A DNA stretch of 47,081 bases, the filler included, from Streblomastix strix (Eukaryota), in assembly GCA_008636045.1 (NCBI GenBank). It is 2 parts of 2 records of this genome, joined end to end, with 100 filler letters (N's around TTAATTAATTAA, not from the genome) between each part and the next. Parts side by side here need not be neighbours in the genome. Positions count along the whole stretch, not along the records: positions 1 to 23,498 come from SNRW01000279.1; positions 23,599 to 47,081 come from SNRW01000280.1. One strand, written 5' to 3'. Shown in pieces: positions 1,631-42,251 of the stretch (position 1 is its first letter; every line of letters starts with the position of its first letter). The notes below the pieces were generated by a model. The model ran no database searches, was not told the origin of the DNA, and saw only the letters and a program-made list of their open reading frames with translations. The position numbers and the translations under genes are program-made.

Positions 1631-1680
1631 TGATCCATCTTAATTAATAAATGGCAAATATTCATCAAATAACTCTCTTG

Positions 1681-2064
1681 TCATGAAAGAAGGAAGTTAT
1701 TACTGATAATTTTTTTATATAACTTATTCATATAATCATCTTAAATACTATGTCAACGTCTTGAATTTAGAATTGATAAAGTAATGTAATGCGCAGCACA
1801 ATTATTTATAGATAAACCTGTTGGGAAAGCATGCCCACATTTAGTGTGAGTGTTTAATGCTTCACCAAGGATGTTTCTACCTCTTTTCTCAAAATTAACT
1901 GCCAAATCATAAAAGCTAGCTACAAGTTTCAATGATTATCGATTAAATGCTCATAATTATCTATGAGCCACTGCGGCCTAACGAAAATCATTATATGTTC
2001 CTTCAAATTTAACTCATTTTTTTGTTACATTTGGAACTTTTTGCCATTCTTCTATTTGTAGCAT
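1681..2064 (-). pseudogene. hypothetical protein relic (MLQIEEWQKVPNV...KCGHAFPTG...)
   Basis: About 128 codons in code 6 with internal TGA stops; no recognisable motif. Confidence 0.35.
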
Positions 2065-2431
2065 TGAATGATGAAACTTGTCTCATTTAATTCGCGAAAT
2101 TAATTAAAACTTCTATAATTGAGCTTTAAAATTCTTAGATATGAAATTGATTTATATAATTTCAATTAATTTTCTTTTAATTTTTATCCAATTTATTTTT
2201 CTCAAAGTAAAAAATACATAAAACATTAATTAGTTAATATTATTTGATTATGTTTAGGTTGAATTTTGGAGATCTGGAGCCGATTTTAGCTCAGTAGTAA
2301 GTTCAAAACTCATCGAACATTTAATTCTGTTTACTAATAAATTCAGCAATCAAAATTACTAACCAACAAGCAAAAAACTATAAACATAATACTTTATTCA
2401 TTGATTTATAATGTTTTTCTCATGGCTGGAA

Positions 2432-4890
2432 TCAAAAATAAAGTCGATTAGCAGTCCAAACGTTAATATTGTCGCTAGCATCTTCGTTAGTGTCTAATGG
2501 TTATAACTCTTAATCCATTAAATATTCGACATCGTCATATTAACCCATCACATCCTTTAACAAATCAAATTAAACATAAAATACTTGTTTTAATTCATAA
2601 CATCATAAACGTATTGCTTATTTTTATATATTTTTATTATCGCAATATGTCTTAATTCCAATCTCATAGAATTATTATTTTATATTTTCTGGTTTAAATT
2701 ATAATGCACTTGCACATGGAACACCTTTTTTAAACACATTAAGGTGTTTTAATATTGTATCTTCTATCTATGATTTACTAACCTTAATTATATCACGTTT
2801 TGCCTCCGTCATAGGTAGTTGTTGCATTTCAAAATCTTTCAAATTTTATTTCATAAAGAAAGTAAATAAATTATTGTAAAAATTAACATCTTAACTATTG
2901 CATAATTCTTTAAAATACGAAATATCTCCTTTATGAATTGGGTTTCATTTTAATATAACATAACGCATATCACTCGCTTCGATTTTTTATTGGATACGGA
3001 TTGTTTGAAACGAATATAAAATTAGTATCATTCTCAGCATCACGATGAGGTTATTTTTTTTCATTTATTCTAATTGTATAATTAGTTTCAACAGATTTTA
3101 ATCCCTCATTATTTGCTCGTTTATCCTCTCCATAATTTGTCATCTCATTGGCTACAATCAAGACCTTTCCTTCAACAATTGAATTGAAATTGCCAGTCAA
3201 TTCTTTTATATTTGTGCAATTTTTACAACTATAGCCCGCCATGAGCTCACATAAAACATCTGTAAATCGGTTCTTACCTATGCCTTAAATACTTTTTAAA
3301 ACAAATGACGATTAAGTTTTTTCCCTCACATTTTGAAGAATATAAGCTATCCAATTAATTACATATTTATATAATTTTTCATCGCCCGAACAAATAACGT
3401 TTAATACTAAATTTAAATATTATTTTATTATATTTTTATCATATTTTTCTAGTTGCTCATATTTCCATCCTTAAAATAGAGAGAAAATTTATTGCTCTAC
3501 TTCATTGAATTTTATACCTTGTATGCTAAATAATGCAGTATATTTTTCGAATATATGCCATACAATTAATTATTTTTTACTATCTTTCCATAATAACATT
3601 GTTTTTAATACATCATATATACCCGCTTTTGTCTTGTGTTCTAATAGATATCTTTTTTGCATGTACATCATATATTTTGACAATGAAATCCATTCGTAAC
3701 TAAACAAATCGAATAAATTTAGTCAAATACGTTATAACTTCATCCTTTGTATATTTTTTTCTCATATCAACAAAATTAAAAGCATCATGCATATCAATAT
3801 CAAATATTTAAATTTCTGATATGTTTTTATTTAAATTGTTTGATTTTCTGAGCTCAGATAGTATCATATTCTCTGAATATTAATTATTGTCATTATTAAT
3901 AGATTTTTATAAATTGAATATGAATTTTTTATCATTAAATCTTATCTTTTTCTGCTCCAATTATTCCATTGCATTACTTGTTAAGTTATTGGATTCTTTA
4001 ACATCTTCATAAACTTATTCAATCTCTTCCTCATTAAACCCGCAATTGATTAGTCCATTGAGTCTGGAAAATAAAGTTAATTAGCTTATTTCTTTTTCTA
4101 ATTTTTATGCATCATTATGAATATTTTATCCTGTTATACCTTGAATCAACTACTCCGCATAATTGTGTGATAATTAAACGGTCCATTCATCGGATATATA
4201 TGGTATTTCTTCATCGACTTATTGCTACAAGTCGATGCCTAATCAATCCAGTATGCATTCAAGAGGCGCCATAAATTATTTAGATTTATAATTATTTAAA
4301 TCAATATATTTTAAAACTTATCTTTCATTATTTTTTGACTCTCTAATTGTAGAACCGGCTTATATGATCCAATGTTATTTTTCATTAATACAATAAAATA
4401 AATCAATCTAATAATTTTCATATTTATAAACATTAATTTATAAATTATTTTTAATATTATAGCTGTTCAAATTGCAATTTAAATGAAGTCCTCCATGTGC
4501 GGTTTAAACTAGTCCAATTTAATCAGTCACTTAGCCAAGTCCCTTAATTACTTAATCTCTTATTTATTTTCTTTACTCTTCATTTAATGTTTTATTTATA
4601 TCAATATCGATAAATGCTAACGCTTAACATTTTGCGATATCTATTGCCTATCCTGATTTATATCCAACACTTTTATTCGTTGGAAATTTAACATAATTAT
4701 ATATATCTGTTGTTGCATCTCTAATTCTATCACTTAACGATTAATAAAAAATTTAATCAAATTGTTTATATAATTGTTTATTTTATTAACTGTTTTATGA
4801 TGATTTCAATGCATCGATTGCTAATAAAATTGAACTCAATGAGTAGTCAATTGTTGGATTCTTATTGTCTGCAATTTCTTACCTGTTAAA
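2432..4890 (-). pseudogene. AEP-type primase fused to SF3 (D5-like) helicase
   Basis: N-terminal AFIDIDIN and TAHGGLHL (AEP DxD and H motifs). Walker A LKSIQGIGKNRF (~3266-3299), then ELTGNFNSIVEGKVLIVANE, IRINEK, NFIFVSN and DMRYV. ORF-track 3051..3242 is part of this gene. Start uncertain; frameshifts present. Confidence 0.88.
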
Positions 4891-4977
4891 AAGTTGAATT
4901 TAAAAAATATAAACTCGTTTATTTTTAAAATAAGTTTAATTATTTATATTTTAAACTTTTTATTTGGCACATTGATA

Positions 4978-5098
4978 TATTGGCCGCTAATTTCTACAAT
5001 AAGTTAAAATGTTCTCTGGGTGGGGACACTCGGGACACTTTTAAACTATTCATTACCTTTTCTATTTTCTCGTACCAAATTTATGCTTTTCATTAACG
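4978..5098 (+). repeat. element-A dispersed intergenic motif, copy 1
   Basis: ATTGGCCGCTAATTTCTACAATAAGTTAAAATGTTCTCTGGGTGGGGACACTCGGGACACTTTTAAACTATTC, with homologs at 11205, 15148 (reverse) and 17357. Confidence 0.85.
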
Positions 5099-5585
5099 TT
5101 TCGAGTATCTGGCAGAATGGCAGGCTGGCAGCAGCTTTTGATGAAAGTTTTTGACTCAATCCACACAATCCACACGGTCAAATTAAAAGTCATTCTCTAT
5201 CAATTTCAGTTATCCGCGCCAAAATCATGTGCGTTTATATTGCAAAATTCGGATTCGTCAACCGTTCGAGATTTCAATTTTAATATCGTATTTGAATTCT
5301 ACGTATCAACATTGTATATAAATATCATTCTCAAGGTAATATGAAAACATTAATTTTTTGGCTTATTTTTTGGCTTTAATTTTTACAGTCATTATATATA
5401 GGAATTAATAAAATAAAAAATAAAAATAAACTTTATTTTCATGAAATTTTAAAATCGTTTGATAATCAACTATACACACAATTAATATACTCTGATTCCG
5501 GATATGACCATTTTTTTCAATCTGAAACAGTTGATTAGGCTCAATTTTCGGCTTTATTTTATGCAAATAATTAATTTTTTTAACA

Positions 5586-6154
5586 TGATTAAAATGAAGA
5601 GTCCAACAATTCCAGAAGTAGAACCATAATTTAAAAAGGAAATCGACCCATTTTAGCAACCATTTCAACAACCATTTCAGCAACAGGCTATCAGATGTGA
5701 AACGCCAACATTGTCGGCTAGGCACAGAAGTTCAATATTTGAAGAAACTTTAATTCCAGACCTTTCAGTGTGTCATTGATTATTGGATATCAATAGTGAA
5801 GACGAGCATATGGTTAAAGAATCAATGCATTTCCTATTGTCTGAAAATTAATTGATTCGGGTTGTTGCTTACACTTTTGACGTCCTAGAGAGTTAAATTT
5901 AATTAAGTATAGAGGACGAAGAATGTTGTGGTAGGTTTTGCAGCAATTCAACTCAAACATTAAATGATAAATTAATTGGGAACGTAAATATATTAAAGCT
6001 TAACGTCGAAAAAGTAAATTTTATAAGTTATAGCTATAAAATATATTTATAAAAAATATGAAAAATAACAAGTATTTTAGAATTAGGAGAGATAACTAGT
6101 AAAATTATTAGAGCCGTATCAAAAGGATTAATGACAATGATAAATAAAATTTGA
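5586..6154 (+). pseudogene. conserved hypothetical viral protein (ORF-X, ~190 aa)
   Basis: MIKMKSPTIPEVEPQFKKEIDPFQQPFQQPFQQQ...SEDEHMVKESMHF..LIRVVAYTFDV. A clear homolog lies at 35158-35752 (-). Internal TGA stops. Confidence 0.75.
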
Positions 6155-6369
6155 TGCCTGCCGATGGCTGAGTTTTACGACATAATAAATTATTTTTATT
6201 TTTATAAAATAGACAGAGATTTATATATGTTTGATGTTGTTTTAAATCATGATTAGGCACTTTATGGTTCAAGTAAGTATAACATCATTGGTTTAATTAA
6301 CGAAGTAAAAAATATTGAAAATTTAATAAATATAATTAATGAAGCACCTGAACCATTTAATCGTGAAGA

Positions 6370-6810
6370 AATTGATGAAATGCTTGATAAAAAATTAAAT
6401 ATTTCTGAATAAATCGATGCTTACACCAAATCAGAAGATGATGCTCAGCTGTTGTTTAAGGCCGATAAATCAGAGCACATTGATGCATATTCGAAAACTG
6501 AAGCCGATGCCTTACTCGACGACAAATTAAATATTTCTGATTTTATTAACGCTTATACCAAATAAGAAGATAATATATTGTTAGCATTAAAATTGAATAT
6601 TATAGATTAAATCGATGCATATTCGAAAACTGAAACCGATGCTCTACACGATGATAAATTAAATATTACTGATTAAATCTATGTATATTCAAAAACAGAA
6701 GCTGATGCCTTACTCGATTAAAAATTAAATATATCAGATTAAATTGATGTTTACACCAAATCAGAAGATGATGCTCTGTTGTTGTTGAAGGATAATAAAT
6801 CAGAGCTTGC
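6370..6810 (+). repeat. ~66-bp coding tandem repeats (first block of fibre A)
   Basis: Recurrent ATCGATGC(T/A)TA..C.AAA.C.GAAG..GATGC units. Confidence 0.85.
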
Positions 6811-7439
6811 GGACTACGTTAATTTAGGCTCTGCTCAAACAATTACAAGTCAAAAATAGTTCAATATTATAATAGTTGCAAGTGTTTCAAAATAGAGAAA
6901 AAATGATGCCTCTATTTTTTTCGCTTGTGGTGGTGATATGCTTGTGAGTTCATTAGTGAATTAAACTGAATTATAAGAAGTTCACGATATAGCTTCTGCA
7001 AAGTAAATAGCATACGTATTCGATATATAGTAAGATTTGATTGATCGGATGGCAATTCAAGACAATGTTGCGAAACTTATAATAAGTGATAATTTATATA
7101 TTGTTGATAAATAAGTAGTGGATTATTGGTGGGGTGGCATCGATTTAAAAGTATTAGAAACTGAATAACCTGATATGACCAATGTCATAACTACTCTAGG
7201 AACAGCTACAGGTGGAGACAATGCAATAAGTGATTTATCATTCAGTGGAAATACATTAATACTTGCGAAAAAAATAAATTTTGTTACCGCAGACTATGAT
7301 TAAAATATTAGCGGTTCAAAAACATTTACCAGCACTATTCATTCTGTTGGCATTTAAGTTCAATATTATGACAATTTAAGCGTCGTACTAGCTGATGGTG
7401 GTAAAAAGCCAATATAGGACATAAATTCAAGCTTTGATT

Positions 7440-8070
7440 TATCAAATTATTACAATAAATCATAAACATACTCATAAACTAAAATAGATTGAAAATATAA
7501 TCTAAAATTGAACTTTTCCGAATAAATTGATGCTTACACTAAGACTTAAAATGATGCGTTGCTGCTGTTGAATGCTGAAAAAACCGAGTTAATCGATTCA
7601 TACACAAAAGGAGAAGATGATGCTCTGCTATAATTGAAGGCTGATAAAACATAATTAATCGATGCATATACAAAACAGAAGCCGATGCCCTACTCGATGA
7701 CATATTAAACGTAAGCGATTAAATTGATGCTTACACCAAATCAGAAGATGATGCCCCGCTGTTATATGAAGGCTCATAAAACTTAATTGATTGTTGTATA
7801 TACAAAAGGAGAAACCAATAATCTTTTAAATAATAATGCAGATTCAGGAGTTTCATACACTAAAGGAGATGATGATGTGTTGCTGTAGTTGAAAGCTGAT
7901 AAAACTTAATTGATTGATGCATGTACTAAAGGCGAATCTATTAATCTTTTAAATAATAAAACCAATTCAGGTGTTTCATACACTAAAGGATAAGATGATG
8001 CTCTGTTGCTATTGAAGGCAAATCAATCAACAACTTAAACCAAAACAGAAACTGATTAATTAATATCACA
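7440..8070 (+). repeat. coding tandem repeats (second block of fibre A)
   Basis: Alternating YTKGEDDALLLLKADKTQLID and YTKGETNNLLNNKADSGVS units. Confidence 0.85.
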
Positions 8071-9014
8071 AATTGAAGTTGTTGATGTTGATTTAAGTGG
8101 TTATATGACCTTAGGCATTGCATAGACAATAACAGCAAACAAAATATACAATAATGCTTGTCAACTCGTAAATTCAATAGATGGAATGGCAACAATTACA
8201 GGTTCATCATTTGTTAAATCAGGTGCTGATGATAGCGTTGTACTACTTTGAGCTGGTGGAACAAAACCATTATCTGAATCCGCTGGTGCTCCAACTGATT
8301 TATCAAACTATTACACAAAAACATAAACATATTCGAAAACAGATACGGATAATAAATATGTAAGATTGGAAGGTTCTATTTAATAAACAATAACAGGAAG
8401 ATTAAAATATGTTAATCCATATGGTGAGACATACAATGAAACAAAAGACCCTGTAGCTAACACTTATTTGACTATGTCAGAAGTAGATTCAAAACTAACG
8501 AATTTCGTTAAAACTGTTAATAATTATGAAATTAATGGCATAAAAACATTCAATGCTAATGATAATGCGACTGGATTTGTGAAAACAGGCAAGGATGATT
8601 CTTCGGTTTTATTGGCTGGTGGTGGCGACCAATTATTATCATCATTTGGAGGGATTGAAGATTTATCATCATATGCATTTTCTGTTATGAATGGAGCAGT
8701 AGTATAATTTAAATTAATTAGAATCGGAAATCTTTATATATTTTCATTTCTCGCTTATGTAGGAAATTATAATGCAGGAACTTTTAATCCTGACTAGTTA
8801 GTTTAGGCTGACACGGCTTTTGCTACTTACATTCCATTTTCGAATAGTACTATTGATAACGGAGGTTATGTAATGATTACTCATCCAACTGGATTAATTA
8901 CCATAAAATCATATACTAATTCATATATTTAATGTGCATCTGCTACATGGTTTAAATGATAACCCAGATTGAGATTTATTATTCGGATTAATTAACTATT
9001 TTTATTGAATATAA

Positions 9015-10618
9015 ATGTCGAACCTTTATATCGATGAAAGATTGTTAGATGCAGCTGGTTTATCTGATTTACCAGAGTTATACGCATATATCAAAGAACG
9101 TTATCCTAAGCCACTAGAGCAACAGCCGCAACCTGCACCTATTGGAGACCAAACTCTACAATAGCAGGTGAAAAATAATGATGATATAATCTTTGGGTCA
9201 GGAGATTCAAATGAAGAGTTCGAGCCATTAGTACCGAACGCTATAACGAAATTGGATTTGAGTTCATAATTAGAGCGATAAAGTTTTTTAGCAACCAGTG
9301 GTTCAGATCCATAGTTAATCGTTTATGGTGATAGAATTACACTAACCGCATCATATGCAACAACAGGTCTATTTCCGGGTGGTGGTTAGGAGAGCGGTTA
9401 TTTATTCAAAAGTTATCCACCTGAAGCAAGACCAAAAGTAGGTGATTAAGTGATTACATTAGTTGGAACCGATGCTTCTAATACATATAATATATTTTGC
9501 TATATCGACTAAAACGGTCCATTTATTATAAACTCCAGATAATTACCATAAAATACTGATCTCATGCTTAACACTACATATTTTAAACAGTATAAATCTT
9601 CAAAGAAAATAAATTGTGATGCGAATAATGAAGGAAAAATAGACATTATAGATACATGGAATATAAATGGAAAAGGATAATTTGAAGCATAATCGTATGT
9701 CTATGAAACAATAAAAAAATAAACTGATTTAATTGAAGCTGGAGTGTAAGATTTAAATAGAATTAATTATTCGAACAGTGAAAATAAACTTAAGGATGAA
9801 TTAGCGATATATAAGGCTGATGGAGCAGCATATTTTATTAAAGATGGTCCATTCATTACATATAGCTTTGAGCAAAATTGGCACAATTAGGCGTAAATTC
9901 TGATACGCAATAAACTGTATATAAATTATTCTCGACAATCATTAAAAATATACTACCACCGAATACGAAATATATGCCTATTCATGTAGAATAATAAGAA
10001 TTTTCCACTATTTGTTTATTCATGGATACGTTTGATAAATATTCAGCTGTTTAGGTGGCCGTTAGTGGAAAATTAGATATGTTTAATTGTGAATTTCATG
10101 GAACATATATCATTGACAACTATACGAACAGCACAAGCACCAATGAAGCATCATCTGAAGAACCCGAATCTCGCATCGACGAAGTAATAATAAAACATGA
10201 AAAATAAATAGATTCATCACCACAACCATAATATATGATAACAAATGTCTATAATCAGTTTATGATAAATGATTTTTTCCTTTCATCAGCATATAATACG
10301 TTCTATATCGTCGATGATGGCACTTGCAAAGTTTGCGTATTTAATCTATATTTCGAATCAAAACGATTGCAAGGGAGGACATAAGAGGTAGGTCGTATTC
10401 CAGATTCTGTATTACCTGCAGATGGTAAAAGTTTGGGTATCCCCACTGCAATATATAGTGCATAGGGTGGAAGATAAAATAAATTTTCTATGAATTATTT
10501 TATTGTAAATTCATAATTTAAAATGTTATACTTTTAATTATCAGAACCATAAGAGTCAATACCAGTAGATTCTGCTGATGTTTATAAATATTGTGCTAGT
10601 GGAATGTATTATTTGTGA
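9015..10618 (+). pseudogene. conserved ~530-aa virion-like protein with repeated beta-sandwich-like domains
   Basis: MSNLYIDERLLDAAGLSDLPELYAYIKERYP ... YPPEARP ... GRIPDSVLPADG ... YCASGMYYL*. Homolog at 29568-31174 (-). At least one frameshift. Confidence 0.7.
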
Positions 10619-10840: not shown

Positions 10841-11155
10841 ATGGCAGTCGGCTTATTCTCAAAAATCAAATAATTAGTTTTAATGATAAGGAAAGGTCTT
10901 CAGTGGTCTAATGATAACATTTATAAACCGTTCATAAAACCATTTGCAAAACCAATACTTGGAGCACTAGGTCCTGTTGGCTAAATAATAGGCAAAGGTT
11001 TAGATGCTGTAAGCTCATTTATTTATTATAATTATGGTGCGGAAAATATTGGTTAATTTAGATAAGAATTTGAAATGTTGAGAAATAACGAATATTTAAG
11101 ATAAAAATTACCCATTGATATTCAGAGTCGAAGAATATAATTATAGAACCAATGA
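10841..11155 (+). CDS. small basic amphipathic protein (104 aa), candidate membrane-penetration/cement protein
   Basis: Intact code-6 ORF MAVGLFSKIKQLVLMIRKGLQWSNDNIYKPFIKPFAKPILGALGPVGQIIGKGLDAVSS. Homolog at 29185-29514 (-). Confidence 0.75.
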
Positions 11156-11409: not shown

Positions 11410-13123
11410 ATGAATAGATTCTTAATGAAAGCAACACATTTACAACATGCAGGGACCATTGAAGAAACATTGTTAGGTAATGCCGTTGTTCCTTTCACTA
11501 ATGACGGAGAATATCATTATTCTATCAAGGAAATCAAACCAGAATCATAAATGGTAGCATTATTTGATAAAGAGATAATCATTAGTTTATCAGACACAGA
11601 CCACAATATCACATAGATGTAAAATACGTTCTTGTCGATAGTGCTAACTGCCAATATCTAACTCGATGATAAATTTGATAAAATTGACGAGACATATAAA
11701 GACGCATTGGTTTCAATTTGTAAGTCTCAAATAAGGTTCAAATCTTATTAGAGAATATACCATCTATCATATAGGTAAAACCATCTATGGAAGTCTATAG
11801 AATGATTCAACAACTGAATCATTTATTTTTAATACAATCAAGCAAAAAAGTGAGAAAAATAATAGACAATACATTCATTTCCTTTATGAGAATATTCAAA
11901 AATTTGATACGGAGGCATGTGGAACATATATAAATATGCGAGAGATTGAAGAGCTAATAGGAAATCGAACAGCCGTTCCATATATAATTCCAATACGCTT
12001 TAGATTCAGCATTCCACTTGATGACCTCTTGATATTTTCTGCCTTCACTGATTATCTTTATGGCCTATTTGGTTATTTAAAAATAATATTCAAAGTAAAT
12101 CCTCAAGCATTCGATTTTTTTTAAGTGAATGCAATTATTTCAATGGCAAAATACTATATAATGAATAAATATGAGTAATTAGGTAGTAGCCAGTAGAGGC
12201 TAATGGATATCGATTTGATGTTCAGAAATTGGAGTTTGACGTTCTAATATACTAAATAATTTACATAATAGGGATGCACTACTGATTTGATTACAGGACT
12301 ACATGCGGAGCCACTTATTGAGTCAGGATTGAAGAACTTAGTACACAACATCAAACCCGTTACCATGAGCATAAAAAATTATATCATTACAGAGGTCATT
12401 GCTAACATGGCGGGTTATAAAGCTACTGATGCATGCCTTAATCGAGTCCGATAATTCTACAGCTAACACCCATTTGTCGTATCTGCGCAATGTGTGGAAG
12501 TATTGCCATTTCCAACATCTGCTACTTTAACGGGAATACGAACATCTTAAAATATTCCTCTGTCTCACGTAACCGACTTCTGCCTTTTATTTCCGAAAGA
12601 TGCAAGATAAACAATGTGTTTTGAAAATCTTTGCTATTAGAACATGCAATTATCCACCTGTGGACGTAATTTCCAAGATATGACTATGAATACGCTTGAC
12701 TAATAATTCTTCTAAATATAACTCAATGCGTCAAATCTTGACTTGATATTCGAAGCTACTGATGAATTCAAAGATGCTTTAACAGCACCAAGAAATACAG
12801 CTACTAGAAGACTAAATCCCCACACTGATTTAACAAGCTTTTTGATAACCCTTTAGTGTGAAAGGAATAGTAATGGAACACTAACTTTCGATTGACTAGA
12901 CACTCAGAATTAGAACACTTCTATCGAACTCAGAGGAGCACCAATATATCAAGGAGCAACAGATTCATACTGTAATGTCGATATCAGTGGAAAGAGGCCA
13001 CCATCTCCGATTTTATGAACAATTCATGATACATTTTTGTTGTTTTCGCCAACAGCGGGTGGTAGCTGCATATATGATACCAACCATTTATTTGATGAAG
13101 TTATTGAACCACTGATAAGATGA
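11410..13123 (+). pseudogene. putative major capsid protein (double jelly-roll?), ~570 aa
   Basis: The most conserved large gene between A and B (IPLDDLLIFSAF, VTANMAGYKA, NIPLSHVTDFCLLFPKD, FENPCYQNMQL, ITLQCERNSNG.LTFDGLDTQN). Size, beta-rich composition and position beside a penton-like gene and an ATPase support MCP; the fold was not verified. Frameshift near 11720-11760. Confidence 0.65.
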
Positions 13124-13888: not shown

Positions 13889-14757
13889 ATGGAAGCAGAA
13901 ACTACAGTCATATAATAAATTATTTCAAATCATGAAACTTTCACTATTGGCTCTAATATGATGTTCGATATAATGACAAGAGATAAATATGAATATGTTA
14001 ATGCAACAAAATTAGTTGCTTTAATTAATAAACGCGAACATACAAATAAATTATTGAAAAAATAATCATTTCTCCAATGTATAGAGATTATAAAGAATTT
14101 TTATGCTCTTAAGGTTATGGACCAAAAAGTGCTACACCCTTTGAATATGCACTACCGTCAATATTTTAAAATAACGTAAGAGGAACATATATTTATAAAG
14201 ATTTAATAAACATAATATGTATGAAAACATCGATAAAATATCTACGTTATATAAATAAAACTTAGGATCTACTTGATGAATGAATTCATTTGGAATATTA
14301 GCTAGATGATTCGAATAGAATGGCCGAATAAGCTTCTATTATATTTGATAGAGATATGAAAGAACGATAAGCAAAAATAAATTAAATATAGGAATAAATT
14401 TAATAGAAAGATAATGAAAATAAATAATTGGAAACGCGTGCTGTTCCAGATGGATATTAAATAGATTATATATTCACTGTTTAGGTAGAAGACGATAATG
14501 AGAACGACAACTCTGTCCTTAATATTAGACGTAGAAATAAATATTATACCAGTAAAAAGCTAAAGAAAGAGTTGAAGGATAGTTTATTAATCTATGAAAA
14601 AATACCTATAAGTAAGTCAAAAAATTATGAAATTAAGGGTTAATTATCGGAAATGTTTGGAGATTAAATACACTTTCATAAGTGCAGATACATCTTTAAA
14701 CCTGAACTAATGGATGAGGTCATAAACTTTATAAAACTAAAGATGTAAGAAAAATGA
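13889..14757 (+). pseudogene. KilA-N domain protein with coiled-coil and C-terminal domain
   Basis: RDKYEYVNATKLV and VRGTYIYKDL are KilA-N motifs. Frameshift near 14060 and an internal TGA. Confidence 0.85.
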
Positions 14758-14791: not shown

Positions 14792-15152
14792 ATGAAAAGA
14801 ATCTTGTTCGATAACAGAAAAAACAATTTATTTACTTAGAAATTATAATTAGAAAAAGATGAATAGGAAGAAATACCATTCGAGGAGGGGATCGAAGGTT
14901 AGACTAACGGACATAAATATTTTGAGACCTTAAATGATTTCAAATAATTTATTTCAAAAATTTAATAATAATTATCTAAACTAACAACGTAAAAACTAAA
15001 TAAATTATATATAAATTGGACGGTTATAAGTTATCAAAAATAGAAGGTCAATTATGTATAAGAACTTGAGTCAAAGACTAATTGAATAGGATTGAGTATA
15101 AATTAGATTAGTTTTTGGATGTTCTAAACCATTAGGTTTAAATGCTGAAATG
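14792..15152 (+). pseudogene. small conserved hypothetical protein
   Basis: MKRILFDN...TTQKLNKLY.KLDGYKLSKIEGQLCIR. Homolog at 24951-25355 (-). Confidence 0.6.
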
Positions 15153-15230: not shown

Positions 15231-15263
15231 CTGTGCCAAACGTTGTTGAAAAGCATTAATGTC

Positions 15264-16051
15264 TCAGATTATTTTTACAACTGTCCCACCCATTTCGTAT
15301 TATACCGCTAATGCTTATTATTTAGTTAGTCGTACATACTCATACTATATTGTTTCTTTATATGATGGTATAGAAGATTAATAGAAAAATCAATTAAATT
15401 TTAATCTGTTAAATGAACCGAAGAACCACAATGATTCAAGATTTGATTTAATTGCAGAATTTAAACCACAAACGTTCTATAAACAAAGGAAGTATGTTAT
15501 TCTGTGCTATCTGTTCTTAAATAACTTTTTAAACAGTGGATTATTTTTATTTATAAATATACTCATTGCATCGTCAAATAAAACAATTGTATGTGGAAAT
15601 TTTACGTTAAAATTACCTTCTCCACTAGCTCCAAATACATTAATTAATATATCATCTTTTGATTCTTCAATTAGCATTTTTATAATTATTTTTCTTAAGT
15701 TTCATCGTACGCTTATTTGCATTCTATTAAATCTTTCAACTCTTGATCCGCTTCGGCATCCGGAATAATTTTAGTCGGAATTTTAATCAAATATTTCATT
15801 TTTTCATAAGTGATGTCATTATTTGAGTCGCTGACGTATATGAATAGTGTATAGCAATGTTTTTTTAATTACATTTATTTTATTAATTCTTTGAAGACAT
15901 TATACGTCTTGCCACTGCCACGCTAACCTATCAATAAATTTACAGAGTTATATGTAAAATTTAATTTTTTATGAATAATTATTTAAATTATATTCTTATC
16001 CACTTTTATTTTTTTTAACATATTATCAACTTTTTATGTTAAACTCGCCAT
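15264..16051 (-). pseudogene. A32-like (FtsK/HerA) genome-packaging ATPase
   Basis: Walker A NLLIGQRGSGKTY (~15901-15940), Walker B FPHTIVLFDDAMS and the KNRQ arginine-finger region; frameshifts present. Confidence 0.9.
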
Positions 16052-16092: not shown

Positions 16093-17184
16093 ATGTCAGA
16101 AATAGATTAAAATGCACTTGAAAAAGTAGCAATATTAGAATTTGAGGCGGAATAAAGATAATAAGATGCAGGTGGTGCAGATGGGATGATGGAAATTATT
16201 GGAATGGAAGCAGATTATGATTAATATGAATCGCAAGCTACAAGATAAGACAGAATGAAATCACAAGCAAAATCGTTTGATAGGCTGCCGTTCCATCCCA
16301 GTACGATTCAAAGAACAAAAAAGCTTGCAGGCCCATAATTTAGAGAAGAGGCAAGCGATGTCCTTGCTACACTCGTTGGTTATTTGAATAGATACATTAA
16401 GAAAATTAATAGGTTATCGTCTGCCGTAAGTGCCCAAAAATATATAAATGATAAACATTTATGCAAACTATTCAGTGTAAAAGAATAAGACTTAGATGAT
16501 AATGGAGCCACTCCTGATAATGTGATAGTTTTTGATAAGAAAAAGAATGCAATTTATTCAATCGATGGTTATACAACAGCTGTTGAATTTGGAGACCCAG
16601 ATCATTAACATAAAAGAAATTGGAAGAAAAAATATTATTCAGATGTTAATGATTTAGAACGAGCTGCATTGGCTGCAAAATTAAAACAATAAGGAATAAA
16701 AGGCGGCCCTTATATGAAATGTCTATCAACGACTAAGCCGCATAAAGAGAGAGCGATAAAGCTACATAGTTTCAGAACATTCATCGTTGATGCCAAAAAA
16801 TTCATAAACTCAAATTGAGGCGTATAATTTCCAATGGCAACCAAACAACAGATAATGGAATCTACTTGGAATTTTTTATTTATTACTCCTGCTATAGAAA
16901 TATTAGAAAGATAAGATGGAAAAATAGATATATATAACAGAAGCAATAAAACTAAAATATTATAAGGAGATTACGAATATTTGCCACTTGCTAAAAGATT
17001 GTATAAGAAAGAATTGCCTACCGTTATTGCTCAACTATATACTACTGGTGAACAAATTAATAATAAGATTGGATAAGCTCTTACACAAGCAATTCAATAT
17101 TATGATGAAATTCTAACATAGAGATAATAATAAATAGGTGGTTATGACTTAGCCAAATACAAGTTCACTTAAAATATTCAATGA
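16093..17184 (+). pseudogene. hypothetical protein, 363 aa (possible core protein)
   Basis: Open in code 6 except for one TGA (~16816). Acidic N-terminus and a QDLDDNGATPDNVIVFD motif. Confidence 0.7.
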
Positions 17185-25355: not shown

Positions 25356-25381
25356 TTCAATTTAACAAAAATAAATTATGT

Positions 25382-26262: not shown

Positions 26263-26457
26263 TTTCTGATCCAGTGAAAAGTTAGATTAATAAATTGAAA
26301 CGAATAATTAATTATTAATGCTTTGAAAATTAATTTACGAGGGGGTCAGTTGAATTTCAGCCGACAGATTGAACTGATAATTTGAATACAAATCTCCATG
26401 ATAGTTTAGGTAAATTTTTTATCCCTTGATTGTTTAAAAATAATTCATTATATTACT

Positions 26458-26718
26458 TCATAACTTTTTATTATTCTTGATAATCTCCTCAACTTATGCA
26501 TCATATTGCTCCATTAATTCTAATTTTGTATCTTCATCACTTTTATTGGCCATAGGATTAACAAAGCAATATGCTAAATCTACTAATCTATTGATTATAT
26601 TTTCCTTAATATATTATTTTAGTACATGTGCCTATTACTCAAGTTCTTTGATTTATTTATATTAATCTTAGATTTACAATAATTTTTAGCATTATTCGGT
26701 AATTGTTATTGAATCCAT
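26458..26718 (-). CDS. small coiled-coil hypothetical protein (element B only)
   Basis: Code-6 ORF MDSITITEQCQKLLQIQDQYKQIKELEQQAHVL...LAYCFVNPMA...; the end is uncertain. Confidence 0.45.
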
Positions 26719-26948: not shown

Positions 26949-27341
26949 TCAATTCACAAGCATCAATTCAAGAACAAATTTTATTTCCGTTTATGTTACA
27001 TTTTAATTCATATAAATTTTGAACCAAATCAACATACTTCGTTAGTGATTCATTTATTAAAATTCATTGATTGTTCTTGTATCATTACAAAAACCTACAA
27101 AATTATCGTTATATTATTCTTTTTGCATTAATGATGAATGAATAGATACAACATCTGGAGTATTAAGTATCTTACATTATATGTATATTATTTTTCGCTC
27201 ATTATTTGAATTTACAAAATCATATGGTAGCCGAACTCGAAATTTCCCTACTTCAAACGTACAATCATCCTACATAATTTCAATGTGCTTCAAATTCTGA
27301 GCCGAAATCATATCAATAATTATTGCCAGATTATATGCCAT
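26949..27341 (-). pseudogene. putative minor capsid/penton homolog
   Basis: LPYDFVNSNNERKI...SIHSSLMQ..FVGFCN...IWFK...KFVLELMLVN*; one frameshift. Confidence 0.6.
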
Positions 27342-27399: not shown

Positions 27400-29121
27400 T
27401 CAAGCAATTATTTATCCAATAACCTCATCGAATGAGTGAGTTGTATTATAATCACATGAATTTCCATTGAGAGATCTAAAATGTCAGAAAATATCATGAA
27501 TTGTGCAAAGAATTGTGGGAGGTGGATGTTATTTATTAGAATCAACATTGTAATATGTATCAACTGCACCTTAATATATTGGTTATTTTCTTAGTTCAAT
27601 TGAAATATTTTTGTTCTGTGTATCTAATCCATCAAATGTTAATGCACCATTGCTATTACGTTCACATTATAAAGTGATAAAGAATGATGAATAATCACTT
27701 ACTGGATTGTATCTTCGTGTAGTACTATCTGTTGGAGTAGTGACTGATTCTTCATATTCATCAGTTGCTTCGAAAATATTATCAAAATTATTAGCAGCAA
27801 GTTATATTGTGAAGAATTACTCGTTAAGAGTATTCATTGGGAAATCAGGGAAATTTCGACCTAAAGTGCTAAATTGCATGTTCTAATAGCATGGGTTCTC
27901 AAAGCAAGTTGTTTATCTAATATCTTTTAGAAAGAATAAACACCTGTCAATAACGTGATAAAGTGGAGTATTTTGACTAGTTCTTAAACCTGTTAATGCT
28001 ACACCACTTGGAAATGCCAATGTTTCAATACGCTATGCAGGAACAACGAATGAACGACTTTGATAGAATTAAAATACGCGATTGAGACATATATCTGATG
28101 CTTTATATCCACTCATGTTAGCTGTAACAGCTGTTAAAATATAGTTTCTTACAGACACTGTAACTGGTCTAATGTCACAAACTAGATTCTTCAATCCTGA
28201 TGGTGTTAGTTCTTCTGCACGTATTCCAGTAATCAAATCAGCAGTGCATCCAATTTATGTGTACATGTTGGTGTATTGCAATGTGAGACTCTAGTTGCGG
28301 AAGAATAGATCAATATACTTAAGCTTATCTAGACCTGAACTCAATAATCCATCTTTGCAAATTGTATCAAATTTTGCTAATGATATAATTGGATCTACTT
28401 AGCAGAGTAAGAATGCTTTTGGATTAATTTTGAATTTAATTTTGAGATCATCAAATAGAGAATTAGGACATTCAGAAAATGCAGAGAAAATCAGTAAATC
28501 ATCTAGAGGAATTGATATTGCGAAATTAACTGGCATAAAATATGGTGCAGCAGTTTATGCAGCATGTGCATCTGAAATAGCTTTGAAGCTAATATATCTT
28601 TTACAGCAGGATATATCATCTATACGTACACTTTCATAAAGGGATTGAACAAAGCTATTAATATTTTTCTCTGATTTCGGTTTAATTGTGTTATAAATAA
28701 ATGATTCAGTTGTTGCATTATTCTATAGAGTTCCATCTACTGTCTTTCCTCAATGTTATAGAACATATTCTCTAATCATTTCAGCTGAATTTTTCAATCT
28801 AACAAATATGAAAGTACCTTCTTTGTATGCTTCATTAAATTAATCAAATTTATTATCGAACAGTAGATTCATTGTGAATTCAAGTGTATTGAATGAATTT
28901 TGGATTTATGTGACATCATGATCTGAATCGGTTAAGCTGACGATAACTTCTTTGTCAAATAATTATGGCATTTATAATTTTAACTTGATCTCTTTGATTG
29001 AAAAATGGAGTTATCCATCGTTCTAAAATGGTTGAATTGCAAAGATTTTTAGCAAGTTCTCAATAGTTTACAAACTTTCCTGTGATTTTGAGATATGAGT
29101 CTTCATAAACTAGCGATTCAT
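27400..29121 (-). pseudogene. putative major capsid protein homolog (~573 aa)
   Basis: MNRQFMKTHIS...PFQNDGQLHFSIKEIK...IPLDDLLIFSAFSE...FENPCYQNMQ...CERNSNGALTFDGLDTQN; a few internal TGA stops. Confidence 0.65.
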
Positions 29122-35814: not shown

Positions 35815-36783
35815 ATGCCAAGTTAAACATTAAAAAATTGAAGAGTTTACAATTACGTTTAATGGTGATGGATATGATTAAATAGGTAAGGTAATAAATA
35901 CGAATGATGCAAATAGTTCAATAAATATAAATATTATGGATTCTAACTTTATTGAATAAGATATGTTTTCAAAAGATAATATTAATGATGCAATTGAATA
36001 CCTTAAGAATAATAAGGTACTATAGATCGAAATACTATACTAGGTACTTTTCAAAAAGGATACGTTTAGATAACGCAGTGTGTATATAAGTGGTAAAAAT
36101 AATTTAAAAATAATCTCTGCTGCTAATGTAGGAATTTAGCATGAAAATATTGATCCAGATTAACTGTAACAGTTTGTGAACTTTGCTTATGAATATGATC
36201 AACCAAATAAGGATATGGTTCTGTTTACATGCTATCTATTATATGAACGTATTCATCCGCATAAAGATGGAAATGGAAGAATGGGAATATGAATGTTTCT
36301 GGAAAATATATACTAATTTACTGAATCATTTGTTTCCCTATCATGTTCGTAACAATAAAAGCAAGCAAAACGATTAATAAATGATATATTCAAGTATATC
36401 AGTTTTGGAGAAGTAATGAATAAGCGTTAGGTCAAGAGTGGTGATGCACTGATTTATAGAGAAGAAATATAAGAGATAGATTTGAAGAAATTTTATGAAA
36501 TAATTAATAGTAACTAACGAACTAAACAACAATATTATACATTAGATTTAGATGATAATACTTGACAATTAATTATTTAATTATTGAATATAGCTAATTT
36601 ATGAGCTGAAGATGCCGAACGAATAACCATTTAATAATGTCAACGCGCATAATAAAAATATAGAATTCAACGACAGGAATTTTGTACATCTGCTAACGAT
36701 TTATAACTCCTCTTGATTCGACATTTATAGAAAACCATCATATATGATGCATAGGATTTACTTCAGATTAGTTAGATAATTGA
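35815..36783 (+). pseudogene. Fic/Doc-domain protein
   Basis: TFRQRSVYISG and LLYERIHPHKDGNGRMG (36236-36286), a variant of the Fic motif HPFxDGNGRxxR; stops and frameshifts present. Confidence 0.85.
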
Positions 36784-37237: not shown

Positions 37238-37710
37238 TCTAGATGGAACAATGGAACAAATGGAACGGAAATATATGAGATTGTGAAAAAGTGCAGACAT
37301 ACTGACATATTGACATATCTTTTATTTTAAATCTAAATTTGAGGGATTAGTTAACATTCTACCTAAAAAACTCTATCATAAGACTATTATTATGTTAGCA
37401 ATCTAAAAGATTGAGTTACATAATTGTTCCACCCTAAATTTCACAAATATATTGAAGGATTTTCAGCAATATTAGAATCTTTCATTTCCAAAATTAATTT
37501 CTATCTCTATAAGCATGGAACAAGTTTTTTCCATCAATTTTCAGGACATCGACATAATTCAATTGTTATGGTAGAATAGTTTAGGTAGAATATTCACTAG
37601 CCGTTGAGGATTAAATACAAAATGAAGGATATGTCAATATATCAGTATGTCACCAGTTTTTCACGAGACGTTTTGAGATTGGTCTATTTGTTCCAATTGT
37701 TCCACTTAGA
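37238..37710. repeat. inverted-repeat pair (about 80-bp arms), element-B motif
   Basis: TCTAGATGGAACAATGGAACAAAT...GTGAAAAAGTGCAGACATACTGACATATTGACATATC (37238-37319) pairs with GATATGTCAATATATCAGTATGTC..TTTTTCAC...ATTTGTTCCAATTGTTCCACTTAGA (37628-37710). Confidence 0.85.
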
Positions 37711-37830
37711 CAAATCACTTCATTTTCCCATTTCGCTAGCTCAAACTAAACTAATATGGATCAAATTTCTGTTCCATCTTCATTTTAGCTGAAATAAACT
37801 TTACATCAAAAAAATTTTCATTTATAGCTT

Positions 37831-40670
37831 TCATTAATATTTAACATCCTATGCCATTTATTCAACATACTTATCATCTTCGTTCTATTTTTTATATTTC
37901 TGGTGGATTTTATTCGATGCTTTAATATCTTCTTCGTACATCATTTTATCGTAATATATTTATTAATCATCATTTAATTTTTATACTTTAGTTCATATTC
38001 CTTCAATTCCCGGTGTTTATTCTATTCAATTATGTTATATTGCATTCTGATATGTTGTTTGTTTCCAATTTTAAGGTTTGTATTAATTTATAAGAGCTAT
38101 TGGAATACCTTATTTGAATTGTTCATAATGTTCCATAATTACATCTTCGTTTGGGGATCGACTTACATTTATCAATTATTTCTTTGCATCGGTCATTGGA
38201 ATTAAGGTTGGATTAAATTATGAAATATCTCTTTCATAAAAGAATGTCATTAAATTTTCATAAAATTCTTATATGAAGCTTTAATTAATTTTATTAAAAT
38301 ATTCAACATCTTCTTTATGATCTTCAGTGACTTAATGAACAGTTTTATAAGCACATACTAAGTGACGTCTATAATCTGTGTCTAAATATAAAGGCGAATC
38401 GGCATTAGATACATAAATTATATTCATAACGTTCTCATCCGTTTTTCTAGGTAGATTCTTTTCATTAATTCTAATTGATTCATCTGAGATTATAGACTTC
38501 ATTACAGTTGCAACTCCTTTCTTAGAATCGTTATAATTTCTTATTTCATTTAGTACTGAAAATGTCTTATTTTCAACTACTTAATTGAAGTTACCTGTGA
38601 ACTTATTAATGTTAGTTATACTTTGGCAACTGTATCGATTAGTTCATTCAGCTATTATATCAGTGAATCTATTTTTACCTATACCTTATCTACCTTATAA
38701 TATGATTGCAGCTCTCAATTTTTTTTCCAGGATTTTATAATATCCATGCAATCCAGTTAAGAATATATTAATAAACCCTTTCATCACCCGCAGCAACAGT
38801 TTCTTTGATTAAATTTATATACATTTATAAATATTCATAATCAATTGTATCTAATTTTTTATATTTATACCCTTGGAATAAACTGAATATTTCTGGATCA
38901 TCATTTATGAATTTACATACTTTCATTATAAATTTTGATGCATACTTTTTAAAGATATTTTTCGCAGTTAGTTGTTTAGATTCTTTTGTTTCATCTGTTT
39001 TTTCATCTTTCTTTTTTATTCATGAAATTTATATTAACTTTTTCTAACTATTTTTAGATAGTTCCTTCAAATTTATGATGTATGACTAACGTTCCACAAA
39101 GAGAATCAAATTGTATAATCATTTATAAATCTTCGGTTTTACCTGAATAATAAGCAATTATTTTTGTTAAATCCATCACGATTTATTCTTCACTCTAATA
39201 TTCTCCATTGGCTGCTTTTTTCTATATATGAAGTTGTGCAAAATCATCAGTTAGATCAATTTAATTTGGAATCAATGTCTAATTGATTAAAATTTATTTT
39301 TCCTTTTTCTTTGTTTCATAACAATTTTTCAATAGTGGTTAAATTATTATATCATAGTAATCTTTATTAAGATATCTGAGAATCTTTATAAGAATCCGCG
39401 GATTATGTTTACGTTCACCATTTGATGAAGCTTATCCATAGTTCTTATCGGCGTTTGCAGTTATCTTGTTAAATTTACGTATATTATTTATCCCTTCAAT
39501 TCTAATTGATTTTTTAGTGATTCCATATAATCTTGAAAATATACTTAAAAGAGATATTACTATATTAGTTGCTTAAGGATAGTTATGAATCGTTAAATTC
39601 TTTAAACCATCTATGCAAGCTTATGCAAGTTCATTAGACATAGGTTCTATCATTCTTTCATTATTTATTTGTTAGGTAAGTAGTTTTTGTTATAATTATT
39701 TTTCATATTCAGCATATGAAACCTCAATATCAACATTTCATTTATCATGAATCTCGTGTAGACTCGTTAAATTTGTCATATTAGCTTAATCATTAATAGC
39801 CTTATATTTGAGTGTTATTTGCTAGCTACTTTTCGTTTCATGGATACTTGTATTAGGTGCAACTACTCTATTTTATATAATTTATTCAGTTTATCTACCA
39901 AATTCAATTTATTATTTCGTCATTTGTGCAAATATATCAATTTCAAAATTTTCCAATATAATAACTTTCATGTTCCAATTTTAAGGTAATCTATAGCCAT
40001 TTCTATTACAATAAGCATGCAATCCTCAATGAGCATTCTTCACTAAGCCTACATTAGATGGAAGCATGTTATCTACTATATTTTATCTTATTTTAATGAT
40101 CTCTTCATTTGGAAGCTTCTTATTAATATCAAAATCAATCACACATAATTCATCGTCATTCATTGACGATAAATCAATAACTTTTACTGTTTTTTATCGT
40201 TTATTTACTCTTTCCTTACGTTCAAACTTAATATAATTTATCGCATCAATCATTACATTCTTAACTCGTTCGCTAATTGGTGCATTTATTATCTCTTACA
40301 TCTATTTATCTTAATCCGATAGAAGTATATCTAAAAGTTTATTAATTTCAATTTTTTCTTATGCTTCTTTCACTCTACATTCTTCATGGTATTTATCAAG
40401 TATTTCACCAAGATCAGTTGATTCAACAGTTGATTCATCAAGTTATTCAACAAATTATTCAACAAGTTATTCAATTGATTATTCAATAGATTGTTTGTTA
40501 AGCATCTCATCTATCAATGCTTTTGCTTTGTCATTTGTTTTCGATTTACGATTAAACTTACGAGATGAATCTTTCTCTAATGTCATATATTTGATTTTTG
40601 GTACGATTGTTCTATCTTCACTTGATTCTAAATATTCTAATCCGTCAGATGACGTTATTTGAATTGTCAT
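37831..40670 (-). pseudogene. AEP primase / SF3 helicase (element B)
   Basis: LCVIDFDIN, NAH*GLHAYC, Walker A LQGRQGIGKNRFTD (~38660-38700), GNFNQVVENK, IRINEKNLPR, NIIYVSN and DYRRHLV. ORF-track 40479..40670 is its N-terminus. Confidence 0.88.
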
Positions 40671-42251
40671 TTTGCTTATGGACTAAAAGTTCAAATATTT
40701 TGTTAAAACAATATTTTATTTAATTTATAACATATGGTAATAGCAGATTAAATTGTTGGGAATTAAAATTTTTGACTTGTTTTGTCTTTTGTCTTATACA
40801 GATAATTATTCAATTCATCAACAATACTAGCACATACGTACTAACAAGAGACAAGCATTTTGTCTTATCGCCAAGTTGTCTGCCATATTTATTGATATGG
40901 TCATTACATTCAATACATCCACGTAAATAATCACATGAAGCTATCTCAATATGTCTATATATAAGCACTTTTTCACGGGTATCGTTGGGATTGTTCCATT
41001 TGTACAAATTGTTCCATCTAGACAGATCATTTCTTTTACTCACAGTGCTAGTGTATGTACACCATAATGAGGAACAATCGGAACAAAATTACTATATATA
41101 GACAATTTATTCAATTTATCCATGCAAATAATCCATATGTTAAATCTTCATATTGCTCCTCATACAACTGTAACAACATTCATTTTTAACATCAAATTCA
41201 TGATCAACATATCAACTTTAACCTTAGGACTCATTCTCAAGTAAATCCGAAAACATTTATTTTTCCATATATTTTTCACTTTCTATTAGACTAGTTGGAG
41301 AGCGCGCTTCACTGTGCGACATTAAAATACATTGATATATATATTATTTATTCAATTAAATATATAATTTAGTAAAAATATTAAATATTCTTTTTTAAAA
41401 AATAAATCTTATGATTCACAGTACAGTTTAAAGTATTATTTTCATGTACACATGAAAATATTATATAGTATATATTTATTATATTAAATTGTAAAAAACC
41501 AGATGCTTATAAAATCAAAAATTTTTCTATAGTTAAATGCGAATTTTTTTATATATAGCATAGACTATATATATTAAAAATAAAAATATTTTATCATAGG
41601 TCAGAATTCCCATTAAATACTTAAAATTTCATATCTCTCTGATATACTACTCTAAGGTCATATCATATGCGTAGATTCTAAAAATAATGTTTATAATCAA
41701 TTCTGTAATTGTTAATAACCAATAATTTTAACAAATAATCCATTTCAATCTTCGATATACTCATCGAAGATATTATTTCATTTTCACTAGTAGAAACTAG
41801 ATTCGACCAGGTCCTTTAGTCAAAATTAGTTAGCACTTATCGCATAAATCATCAGATTTATGCTATCTGTAGTGATGTAAAAAGAAGCCTGCCTGAGAAT
41901 AGAAAAATCTGAAACCTTACCAACACAATAATTCCTATTCATTAACCCACATAGCAACATACTCAAATATCTGTTCTGATTGCTTCACATAATTAGGATG
42001 AACTAGTAAATTTATTCATAAATAATAAACAATTATTTTGAAGAATGAAATTTAATCATAAACAATTATTACAATAAATAAAGAATAAATTAAAGAATAA
42101 TCAATATGAATAATTTTATTAAATAATTATATAACAATCCTATAAAATATCTCCTATAATTCGCCAATACAATTAAAAGATAATGATTTACACTCTGAAT
42201 AAGTTTTTTAACTTTTTGATTCGAGGGTAGGCTTCTTTTTACATCACTACT

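What the first reader, a model, noticed from the sequence alone, without database searches (positions are those of the whole stretch)
1650..41100. Two diverged copies of a recoded endogenous Polinton-like virus with a conserved virion module
Seen: the order ORF-X, fibre, multi-domain virion-like protein, amphipathic protein, putative MCP, putative penton, KilA-N, small ORF and convergent ATPase is kept in A (+) and B (-), with B adding one small ORF before KilA-N, despite obvious protein divergence. A also has pPolB, and both have a primase-helicase. Known: pPolB, an A32 ATPase and jelly-roll capsids define Polintons/PLVs. Inferred: a distinct, possibly undescribed lineage of virion-forming endogenous viruses in a code-6 protist, with an MCP I cannot place in a known family by eye and several conserved genes of unknown function.
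Basis: partly seen in the sequence, partly recalled or inferred. Interest (0 to 1): 0.9.

Follow-up and report, generated by a model that had tools for sequence, protein, structure and literature searches.

The report
Dead Polinton-like viruses in termite protist
These are two broken copies, on contigs that are likely unlinked, of a Polinton-like DNA virus family already reported in the termite-gut protist Streblomastix strix; the main new detail is a very small protein predicted to be its capsid vertex (penton).

Summary
The gene map is real, but the lineage is in print. Copies A and B share the virion module in the stated order (33-67% aa identity). Their capsid proteins are 78-80% identical to Streblomastix strix proteins in the 'confirmed MCP' set of Bellas et al. 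2023 (Metamonada group; 820 hits in that genome; TAA/TAG=Gln noted there). A 2026 preprint still cannot classify the group. Corrections: the window halves are joined by a 100-nt N/TTAATTAATTAA spacer and are very likely separate contigs. B is cut inside a mariner-like insertion in its ATPase, so its missing pPolB means nothing. A and B fall in different MCP clades. Both are decayed, including A's polymerase motifs. New here: the 131-aa ORF after the MCP models confidently (pLDDT 90) as a crownless single jelly-roll. Its five best fold matches are capsid entries of double-jelly-roll viruses (Z 6.7-8.5), and it has 54 relatives in the 50%-cluster library. KilA-N occurs here in a non-parabasalid host. 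No integrase, protease or terminal repeat was found, but both copies are open at one end. My own MCP model failed (pLDDT 34). Verdict: known group, useful added anatomy.

The parts
256..1626 (.). Host flank: DDE-transposase-like fragment (786-1365) between 53-bp inverted repeats; not part of the virus
   Evidence: 256-308 vs 1626-1576, 81%; DDE likeness by eye only, no family hit; covered by a 0-difference contig
2447..4900 (-). A: primase / SF3 (D5-like) helicase, broken into four frames
   Evidence: DUF5906 E 8e-17; PHROG DNA primase E 1e-18; primase motifs DID and TAHGGLH by eye
4957..5079 (+). A: copy of a ~90-bp intergenic repeat; others at 10668 (-), 11190 (+), 15147 (-), 17357 (+), 22531 (-)
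5585..6151 (+). A: short Pro/Ser-rich ORF plus ORF-X, unknown function
   Evidence: 59% to B over 87 codons; short ORF 30% to B, E 3e-6
6164..8959 (+). A: fibre-like repeat protein with in-frame TGA breaks
   Evidence: 66/132/123-bp repeats; PHROG 5004; 56-67% to B
9015..10618 (+). A: conserved multi-domain protein, likely structural; one frameshift
   Evidence: 56% to B over 515 codons; no meaningful family or PDB hit
10841..11155 (+). A: small basic protein before the MCP; protein-VI-like role is a guess
   Evidence: 40% to B; fused to MCP in 18 of 213 S. strix gene models held; amphipathy not above shuffles
11410..13114 (+). A: major capsid protein (Metamonada group), one frameshift and two TGA
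   Evidence: 78% to KAA6401509.1 = P0169
13283..13678 (+). A: 131-aa predicted penton, crownless single jelly-roll; open frame
13889..14757 (+). A: KilA-N protein, broken
   Evidence: PF04383 E 4.5e-5, just under the cut-off
14792..15085 (+). A: small ORF
15250..16051 (-). A: packaging ATPase (A32-like by motifs), frameshifted
   Evidence: Walker A GQRGSGKT and Walker B IVLFDD in the sequence; weak terminase PHROG hits E 0.003-0.006; 46% to B
16093..17184 (+). A: ~360-aa unknown protein with one TGA
   Evidence: no convincing family
17593..22392 (+). A: pPolB region (possible N-terminal ORF; TP/vOTU-like part by eye; exonuclease; HNH/EndoVII insert; palm); frameshifted, catalytic motifs altered
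23392..23498 (+). 107-bp 99% copy of pPolB 21384-21490 at the contig end, probably an assembly artefact
23499..23598 (.). Artificial 100-nt spacer joining two contigs
23599..23863 (+). 3' end of a mariner-like transposon inserted at a TA in B's ATPase
   Evidence: transposase likeness by eye (recalled), no Pfam hit
23864..24365 (+). B: C-terminal part of the ATPase
24399..24837 (.). B: small element with 78-bp terminal inverted repeats (CAGT...ACTG)
24954..26718 (-). B: extra 86-aa ORF, KilA-N protein and small ORF
   Evidence: KilA-N E 5e-6, above the cut-off
26949..27341 (-). B: predicted penton
   Evidence: 37-43% to A
27400..29121 (-). B: major capsid protein, 573 codons in one frame with two TGA
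   Evidence: 78-80% to KAA6381728.1 = P0203
29185..35752 (-). B: small basic protein, multi-domain protein, fibre, ORF-X and short ORF
   Evidence: fibre repeat PHROG 5004 E 9e-13; weak match to SPO1-like phage genes, one annotated tail fibre, E 1e-4
35834..36565 (+). B only: Fic-domain ORF (HPHKDGNGRMG), broken
   Evidence: PF02661 E 0.005, under the cut-off; PHROG E 2e-8
37238..41037 (-). B: primase-helicase (40670-37837) with related repeats at 37238 (+), 37622-37725 and 40935-41037 around it

Best explanation
The window holds two decayed copies of the Streblomastix strix Metamonada-group Polinton-like virus, read with TAA/TAG as glutamine and lying on what are likely separate contigs, whose intact ancestors likely formed icosahedral virions. 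Inferred cycle: a linear genome is copied by a protein-primed PolB, helped by a primase-SF3 helicase. An A32-like ATPase packs it into a shell of double-jelly-roll MCP, closed at the vertices by a minimal single-jelly-roll penton that would carry the long fibre. The small basic protein before the MCP may aid membrane entry (weak). Integration most likely used an integrase that lies beyond the truncated pPolB-side end of both copies, as in trichomonad Mavericks (about 55%); otherwise the family has none and was fixed by host repair (about 35%). Shown: gene order, MCP family, helicase, pPolB homology, decay, one host-virus junction. Predicted: penton fold. Inferred: virion formation, entry, integration route.
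For: MCP: 120 of 120 listed hits (of 248) are S. strix. B is 80% identical to KAA6381728.1 and A 78% to KAA6401509.1; both accessions stand in the 'confirmed MCP database' column of Bellas Table S5, about 32% to T. vaginalis MCPs. Bellas Table S3 matched an S. strix member to the Sputnik capsid by Foldseek, E 2.6e-12. Atlas features of P0026 score 0.96-0.97 with Preplasmiviricota, Sputnik-MCP and NCLDV-capsid clusters. Penton: pLDDT 89.7; the top five of 48,161 chains are EhV-201, PBCV-1, mavirus penton (Z 7.2, rmsd 3.6, 113 aligned), FAdV-C4 and SGIV entries. A-B divergence under selection: pN 0.18-0.43 against pS 0.47-0.73. Decay: long end branches 0.17 and 0.21 against a median of 0.061; motif C reads GNIDS against GDTDS/LDTDS and Exo I YGIET against FDFET/YDFET in relatives. 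Integration: a 0-difference contig (1808-2673) bridges flank and helicase end.
Against: My MCP model was uninformative (pLDDT 33.9), so the double jelly-roll rests on the published model of a homolog and on atlas features. Penton Z scores are middling, no Foldseek match reached E 0.001, and nucleoplasmin cores score 6.1-6.5. That the four non-mavirus chains are pentons is recalled, not shown by a call. The ATPase has no strong family hit. No integrase, protease or terminal repeat was found. Run X1 may be the window's own source, so it is not independent. In the code test Lys (12 of 51) is commoner than Gln (6 of 51) opposite TAA/TAG in P0214.
Confidence: 0.88

Rival explanations
1. The family has no integrase or maturation protease: it is a lytic or episomal virus whose copies were fixed by host repair, perhaps helped by the HNH insert in pPolB.
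For: About 20 kb of A from its left junction, and B from the ATPase to its host-like flank, gave no integrase or protease hit; no inverted or direct terminal repeat above shuffles.
Against: Both copies are cut at the pPolB side (A 1.1 kb after pPolB, B inside the ATPase). Decay weakens family hits. T. vaginalis Mavericks, the closest group, have an integrase ORF (PMC12289875). Several hundred insertions are easier to explain with an integrase.
Confidence: 0.35
2. The primase-helicase is a separate mobile cassette lying next to the virus, not a viral core gene.
For: Its orientation relative to the capsid module differs between A and B; it is the most diverged shared gene (33-41%); in B related repeats lie on both sides in inverted orientation.
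Against: It lies at the ORF-X side of the module in both unlinked copies. Primase-SF3 helicases are common PLV replication genes.
Confidence: 0.2
3. The broken frames are assembly errors from collapsed near-identical copies and the elements are intact, as Bellas et al. found in other protists.
For: Passage in PMC10120064; 33,849 similar contigs pile on A; a 107-bp duplicate at the contig end suggests assembly trouble.
Against: A low-depth contig with 0 differences spans the broken helicase stretch 3420-3937, while deeper variants differ there by indels. Transposon insertions and motif decay are not typical consensus errors. Only A was laid.
Confidence: 0.08
4. The 131-aa protein is some other single jelly-roll protein (cement or nucleoplasmin-like), not the penton.
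For: Z 6.7-8.5 is only about 1-2 above the nucleoplasmin rows; atlas hits were under 0.9.
Against: All five best rows are capsids of double-jelly-roll viruses; the gene follows the MCP in both copies; a crownless single-jelly-roll penton exists in SGIV (PMC10090177).
Confidence: 0.15

Closest known systems
Metamonada-group EVEs of Streblomastix strix (Bellas et al. 2023, PMC10120064; MCP cluster MMPC_40)
   Same: MCP 78-80% identical to members of their confirmed set; same host code; 820 MCP hits in the genome.
   Different: In the text and tables I saw, the paper gives MCP-level data only: no penton, fibre or gene order for S. strix. Five automated S. strix maps in Dataset S1 are figures that I could not see.
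Trichomonas vaginalis Mavericks / Polinton-1_TV
   Same: Same MCP cluster (about 32% identity); KilA gene; high copy number; unplaced in PLV taxonomy.
   Different: They have an integrase ORF and often TIRs; neither was seen here. These copies use code 6 and an oxymonad host.
Polintoviricetes (Polintons / Mavericks / adintoviruses)
   Same: pPolB with an inserted homing endonuclease, ATPase, MCP and penton; best BFVD row is an adintovirus protein (E 2.5e-3).
   Different: No RVE integrase or Ulp1 protease found; highly divergent MCP; extra primase-SF3 helicase and phage-like fibre.
Mavirus-like virophages
   Same: pPolB plus helicase (recalled); penton fold match Z 7.2-7.5; published MCP model nearest to Sputnik.
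   Different: No virophage protease or integrase seen; penton under half the length; no helper giant virus evidence here.

Membership tests
Metamonada-group Polinton-like EVEs (Bellas 2023) | MCP in the T. vaginalis / S. strix cluster | tested here: met
   78-80% to two accessions of the confirmed set
Metamonada-group Polinton-like EVEs (Bellas 2023) | S. strix members read TAA/TAG as Gln | tested here: met
   Frames open only under code 6; Gln opposite TAA/TAG in 6 of 51, 5 of 48 and 3 of 16 aligned places against backgrounds of 41/1044, 27/937 and 7/198; enrichment modest
Preplasmiviricota (PLV sensu lato) | Double jelly-roll MCP | tested here: inconclusive
   Own model pLDDT 34; atlas features 0.96-0.97; published Foldseek match of a homolog
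Preplasmiviricota (PLV sensu lato) | Single jelly-roll penton | tested here: met
   pLDDT 89.7; best fold rows are viral capsid entries incl. mavirus penton; vertex position not tested
Preplasmiviricota (PLV sensu lato) | A32/FtsK-type packaging ATPase | tested here: inconclusive
   Walker A and B present in A; only weak HMM hits; A32 assignment by recalled motifs
Polintoviricetes (Polinton proper) | Protein-primed PolB | tested here: met
   34-38% to full-length relatives that hit a DNA polymerase PHROG at E 7e-13 and EndoVII; motifs decayed in A; B truncated; protein priming itself inferred
Polintoviricetes (Polinton proper) | RVE integrase | tested here: inconclusive
   No hit in 61 + 44 frames against Pfam or 21 against PHROGs; both copies truncated at one end; 44 of the 88 listed spare frames were not scanned
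Polintoviricetes (Polinton proper) | Ulp1-type cysteine protease | tested here: inconclusive
   No hit in the same scans; truncation and decay apply
Polintoviricetes (Polinton proper) | Terminal inverted repeats and target-site duplication | tested here: inconclusive
   No end-to-end match above 30 shuffles; second ends are probably not in the contigs
Virophages (Virophaviricetes) | Dependence on a giant virus; virophage MCP and protease | not testable with these tools
   Bellas places the Metamonada group apart from virophage MCPs

The most novel reading that the evidence does not exclude
An integrase-less, protease-less family of fibre-bearing viruses with one of the smallest pentons known fills about a tenth of an oxymonad genome, has many uncharted relatives in metagenomes (54 penton clusters), and carries KilA outside parabasalids; its penton and pPolB would be the markers that finally place the unclassified Metamonada group.
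Probability: 0.3. Interest if true: 0.65.

Novelty: already known. Interest (0 to 1): 0.38.

Why it matters
The virus group and its recoding are published, so the headline claim is not new. The added value is anatomical. The Metamonada group is still unplaced for lack of comparable genes and genomes. A predicted minimal penton with 54 relatives in the 50%-cluster library, two full-length pPolB relatives and a conserved gene order give markers to find and place it. KilA-N in an oxymonad element bears on the preprint claim that KilA appears restricted to parabasalid polintons: either it was gained earlier, or the virus moved between protists that share the termite gut.

Tried and rejected
No whole genome is held. 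MCP AlphaFold model unusable (pLDDT 34) and not searched by fold. MCP against Pfam and PDB sequences: nothing meaningful. Word-index search with the penton: none; atlas search with relative P0216: under 0.9, poor model. Six scans of viral contigs and two of metagenome contigs returned no locus, so no intact copy, gene order outside S. strix, TIR or TSD could be examined. Four-copy complex of P0216: no verdict. No RNA holder listed. Summed contig depths were not used to rank genes or count copies. Rfam and tRNA scans: none. PDB and phage searches for A's fibre and multi-domain protein: no meaningful match. vOTU-like Cys region against P0215: not significant, E 1.2, so that domain is by eye. The MCP tree is a quick tree of 25 of the 213 S. 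strix proteins held plus two window frames, with no outgroup; no pPolB or ATPase phylogeny was possible with two relatives. One training interval and one ORF-X piece were off-frame; no conclusion rests on them. Earlier scan findings: none. Rejected: local duplication of one insertion (different clades, near-saturated synonymous sites, artificial join).
Full report
1. What is in the window. GC is 23-35% up to 43 kb. The standard code gives only 28 ORFs of 80 aa or more; code 6 opens long frames with clear viral repeats and motifs. A code-6 tblastn of the window against itself shows two collinear, inverted blocks, A (5.6-16.1 kb, +) and B (35.8-23.9 kb, -), plus a primase-helicase in each. Identity per gene runs from 33% (primase) to 67% (fibre end), with 58% over 555 MCP codons. 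Synonymous sites are near saturation (pS 0.47-0.73) and non-synonymous sites far lower (pN 0.18-0.43).

2. The two copies are not neighbours. Positions 23499-23598 are 44 N, TTAATTAATTAA, 44 N. The halves are 23,498 and 23,483 bases. An S. strix gene model, P0112, sits on a contig of 23,498 bp and is identical to A's small basic ORF over 39 aa; locus tags close to it sit on a contig of 23,513 bp. The simplest reading is two consecutive contigs of a length-sorted assembly. B's contig starts inside a mariner-like 3' end that abuts the ATPase at a TA (transposase likeness by eye), so the rest of B, including any pPolB, is unseen. In a quick MCP tree (25 of 213 S. strix proteins held, plus both window frames) A and B fall in different clades with support 99-100 and have long end branches.

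3. Identity of the virus. B's MCP gave 248 hits; all 120 listed are S. strix hypothetical proteins. Bellas et al. 2023 (PMC10120064; I saw the abstract, passages, the first two of three parts of the Results, rows of the supplementary tables and the labels of Dataset S1; the table file was cut when stored and figures are not held) define a 'Metamonada group' seeded by the T. vaginalis MCP. They name S. strix and state that its EVEs use the same translation table. They count 820 MCP hits, about 11% of that genome by their estimate, and report a Foldseek match of one member to the Sputnik capsid. Two accessions in their confirmed-MCP column turned up in my cluster look-up; B is 80% identical to one and A 78% to the other. 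A 2026 preprint (10.64898/2026.06.19.733378; passages and section 8, supplements closed) leaves Metamonada elements ungrouped. My own MCP model failed; atlas features support a capsid protein.

4. The penton. The 131-aa ORF after the MCP, searched as an A+B profile against 1.84 billion representatives, gave 54 hits at E up to 0.001, mostly 106-214 aa. The 19 that I looked up come from ENA, JGI or Logan and have no informative name. With 51 of the 54 as alignment (two long and one 35-aa hit left out) the model has pLDDT 89.7 and eight strands. Against 48,161 PDB chains the top five rows are EhV-201 (Z 8.5), PBCV-1 (7.3), mavirus penton (7.2), FAdV-C4 (6.8) and SGIV (6.7), followed by nucleoplasmin cores at about 6. 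Only the mavirus chain is named as penton by the tool; the others I recall as pentons. Foldseek gave nothing at E 0.001. SGIV has a crownless single-jelly-roll penton (PMC10090177, passages). I put the penton reading at about 85%. Searches listed no paper whose title or the passages I read name a penton for this group; the five S. strix maps in Dataset S1 may bear on this.

5. Replication genes and decay. A's pPolB aligns at 34-38% with two full-length metagenomic proteins that hit DNA polymerase and endonuclease VII PHROGs. Homing-endonuclease inserts and a TP-vOTU-Exo-Palm layout are described for polinton pPolBs (10.1101/2024.03.18.585575, passages); the TP and vOTU parts here are by eye only. 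A's copy has frameshifts and altered Exo I and motif C residues. Each MCP has two TGA stops. Laid on A, run X1 (termite gut metagenome contigs, possibly the window's own source) gives 0-difference contigs over 419-1837, over 1808-2673, which bridges the flank and the helicase end, and over 3420-3937, a broken part of the helicase; thousands of 80-99% alike contigs pile up from about 2.5 kb on. This supports integration, real decay and a large family.

6. What is missing. No integrase or protease was found in the coding segments or in 44 further frames, and no terminal repeats. T. vaginalis Mavericks have an integrase ORF (PMC12289875, passages). Both copies are open at the pPolB side, so absence is not shown. 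I therefore file this under the Metamonada group of Polinton-like EVEs and not under Polintons proper.

7. Side results. KilA-N follows the penton in both copies, while the egovirus preprint (10.1101/2024.03.23.586382, passages; supplements closed) says KilA appears restricted to parabasalid polintons and does not mention Streblomastix in its main text. A carries six copies of a ~90-bp repeat, in both orientations, all between genes although only 12% of A is intergenic; motif searches found none in B. It is either a viral signal of A's clade or a small mobile element that the virus tolerated while still functional.

8. Verdict. Known group, dead copies, with a predicted minimal penton and a gene map as modest additions. 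Interest 0.38.

Noticed in passing
window 4957, 10668, 11190, 15147, 17357, 22531: Six diverged copies of a ~90-bp repeat with tandem 9-mers, only in A and only between genes; none found in B. A second short repeat lies at 5108 and 17223, and contig joints suggest that it sits at other intergenic sites in other copies.
   Followed up: partly
window 23499-23598: Artificial spacer joining two contigs of almost equal length; any adjacency across such spacers in this scan is not biological.
   Followed up: yes
window 23599-23863: Mariner-like transposon end inserted at a TA inside B's ATPase.
   Followed up: partly
window 24399-24837: 439-bp element with 78-bp terminal inverted repeats starting CAGT, just after B's ATPase.
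   Followed up: partly
window 35834-36565: Fic-domain ORF in B only, on the strand opposite to the module.
   Followed up: partly
window 37238-37725 and 40935-41037: Repeat family forming a ~490-bp inverted-repeat element and a third copy on the far side of B's primase-helicase.
   Followed up: partly
window 26361-26399 and 26857-26895: 39-bp direct repeat (85%) around B's extra small ORF, which suggests gain by duplication of an intergenic signal.
   Followed up: no
window 23392-23498: 99% copy of 107 bp from inside A's pPolB at the contig end; probable assembly artefact.
   Followed up: no
window 42270-46400: Higher-GC, strand-skewed host region with broken minus-strand ORFs, possibly a retroelement; no family hit.
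   Followed up: no
window 256-1626: DDE-transposase-like fragment between 53-bp inverted repeats in the left host flank.
   Followed up: partly
proteins P0033, P0058, P0048 and others: In 18 of 213 S. strix gene models held, the small basic ORF is merged with the MCP, probably by false introns; this shows conserved adjacency and mis-annotation.
   Followed up: partly
proteins P0270, P0280, P0285: Metagenomic penton relatives on contigs of 9-18 kb, which may hold intact related viruses; the contigs could not be fetched.
   Followed up: partly
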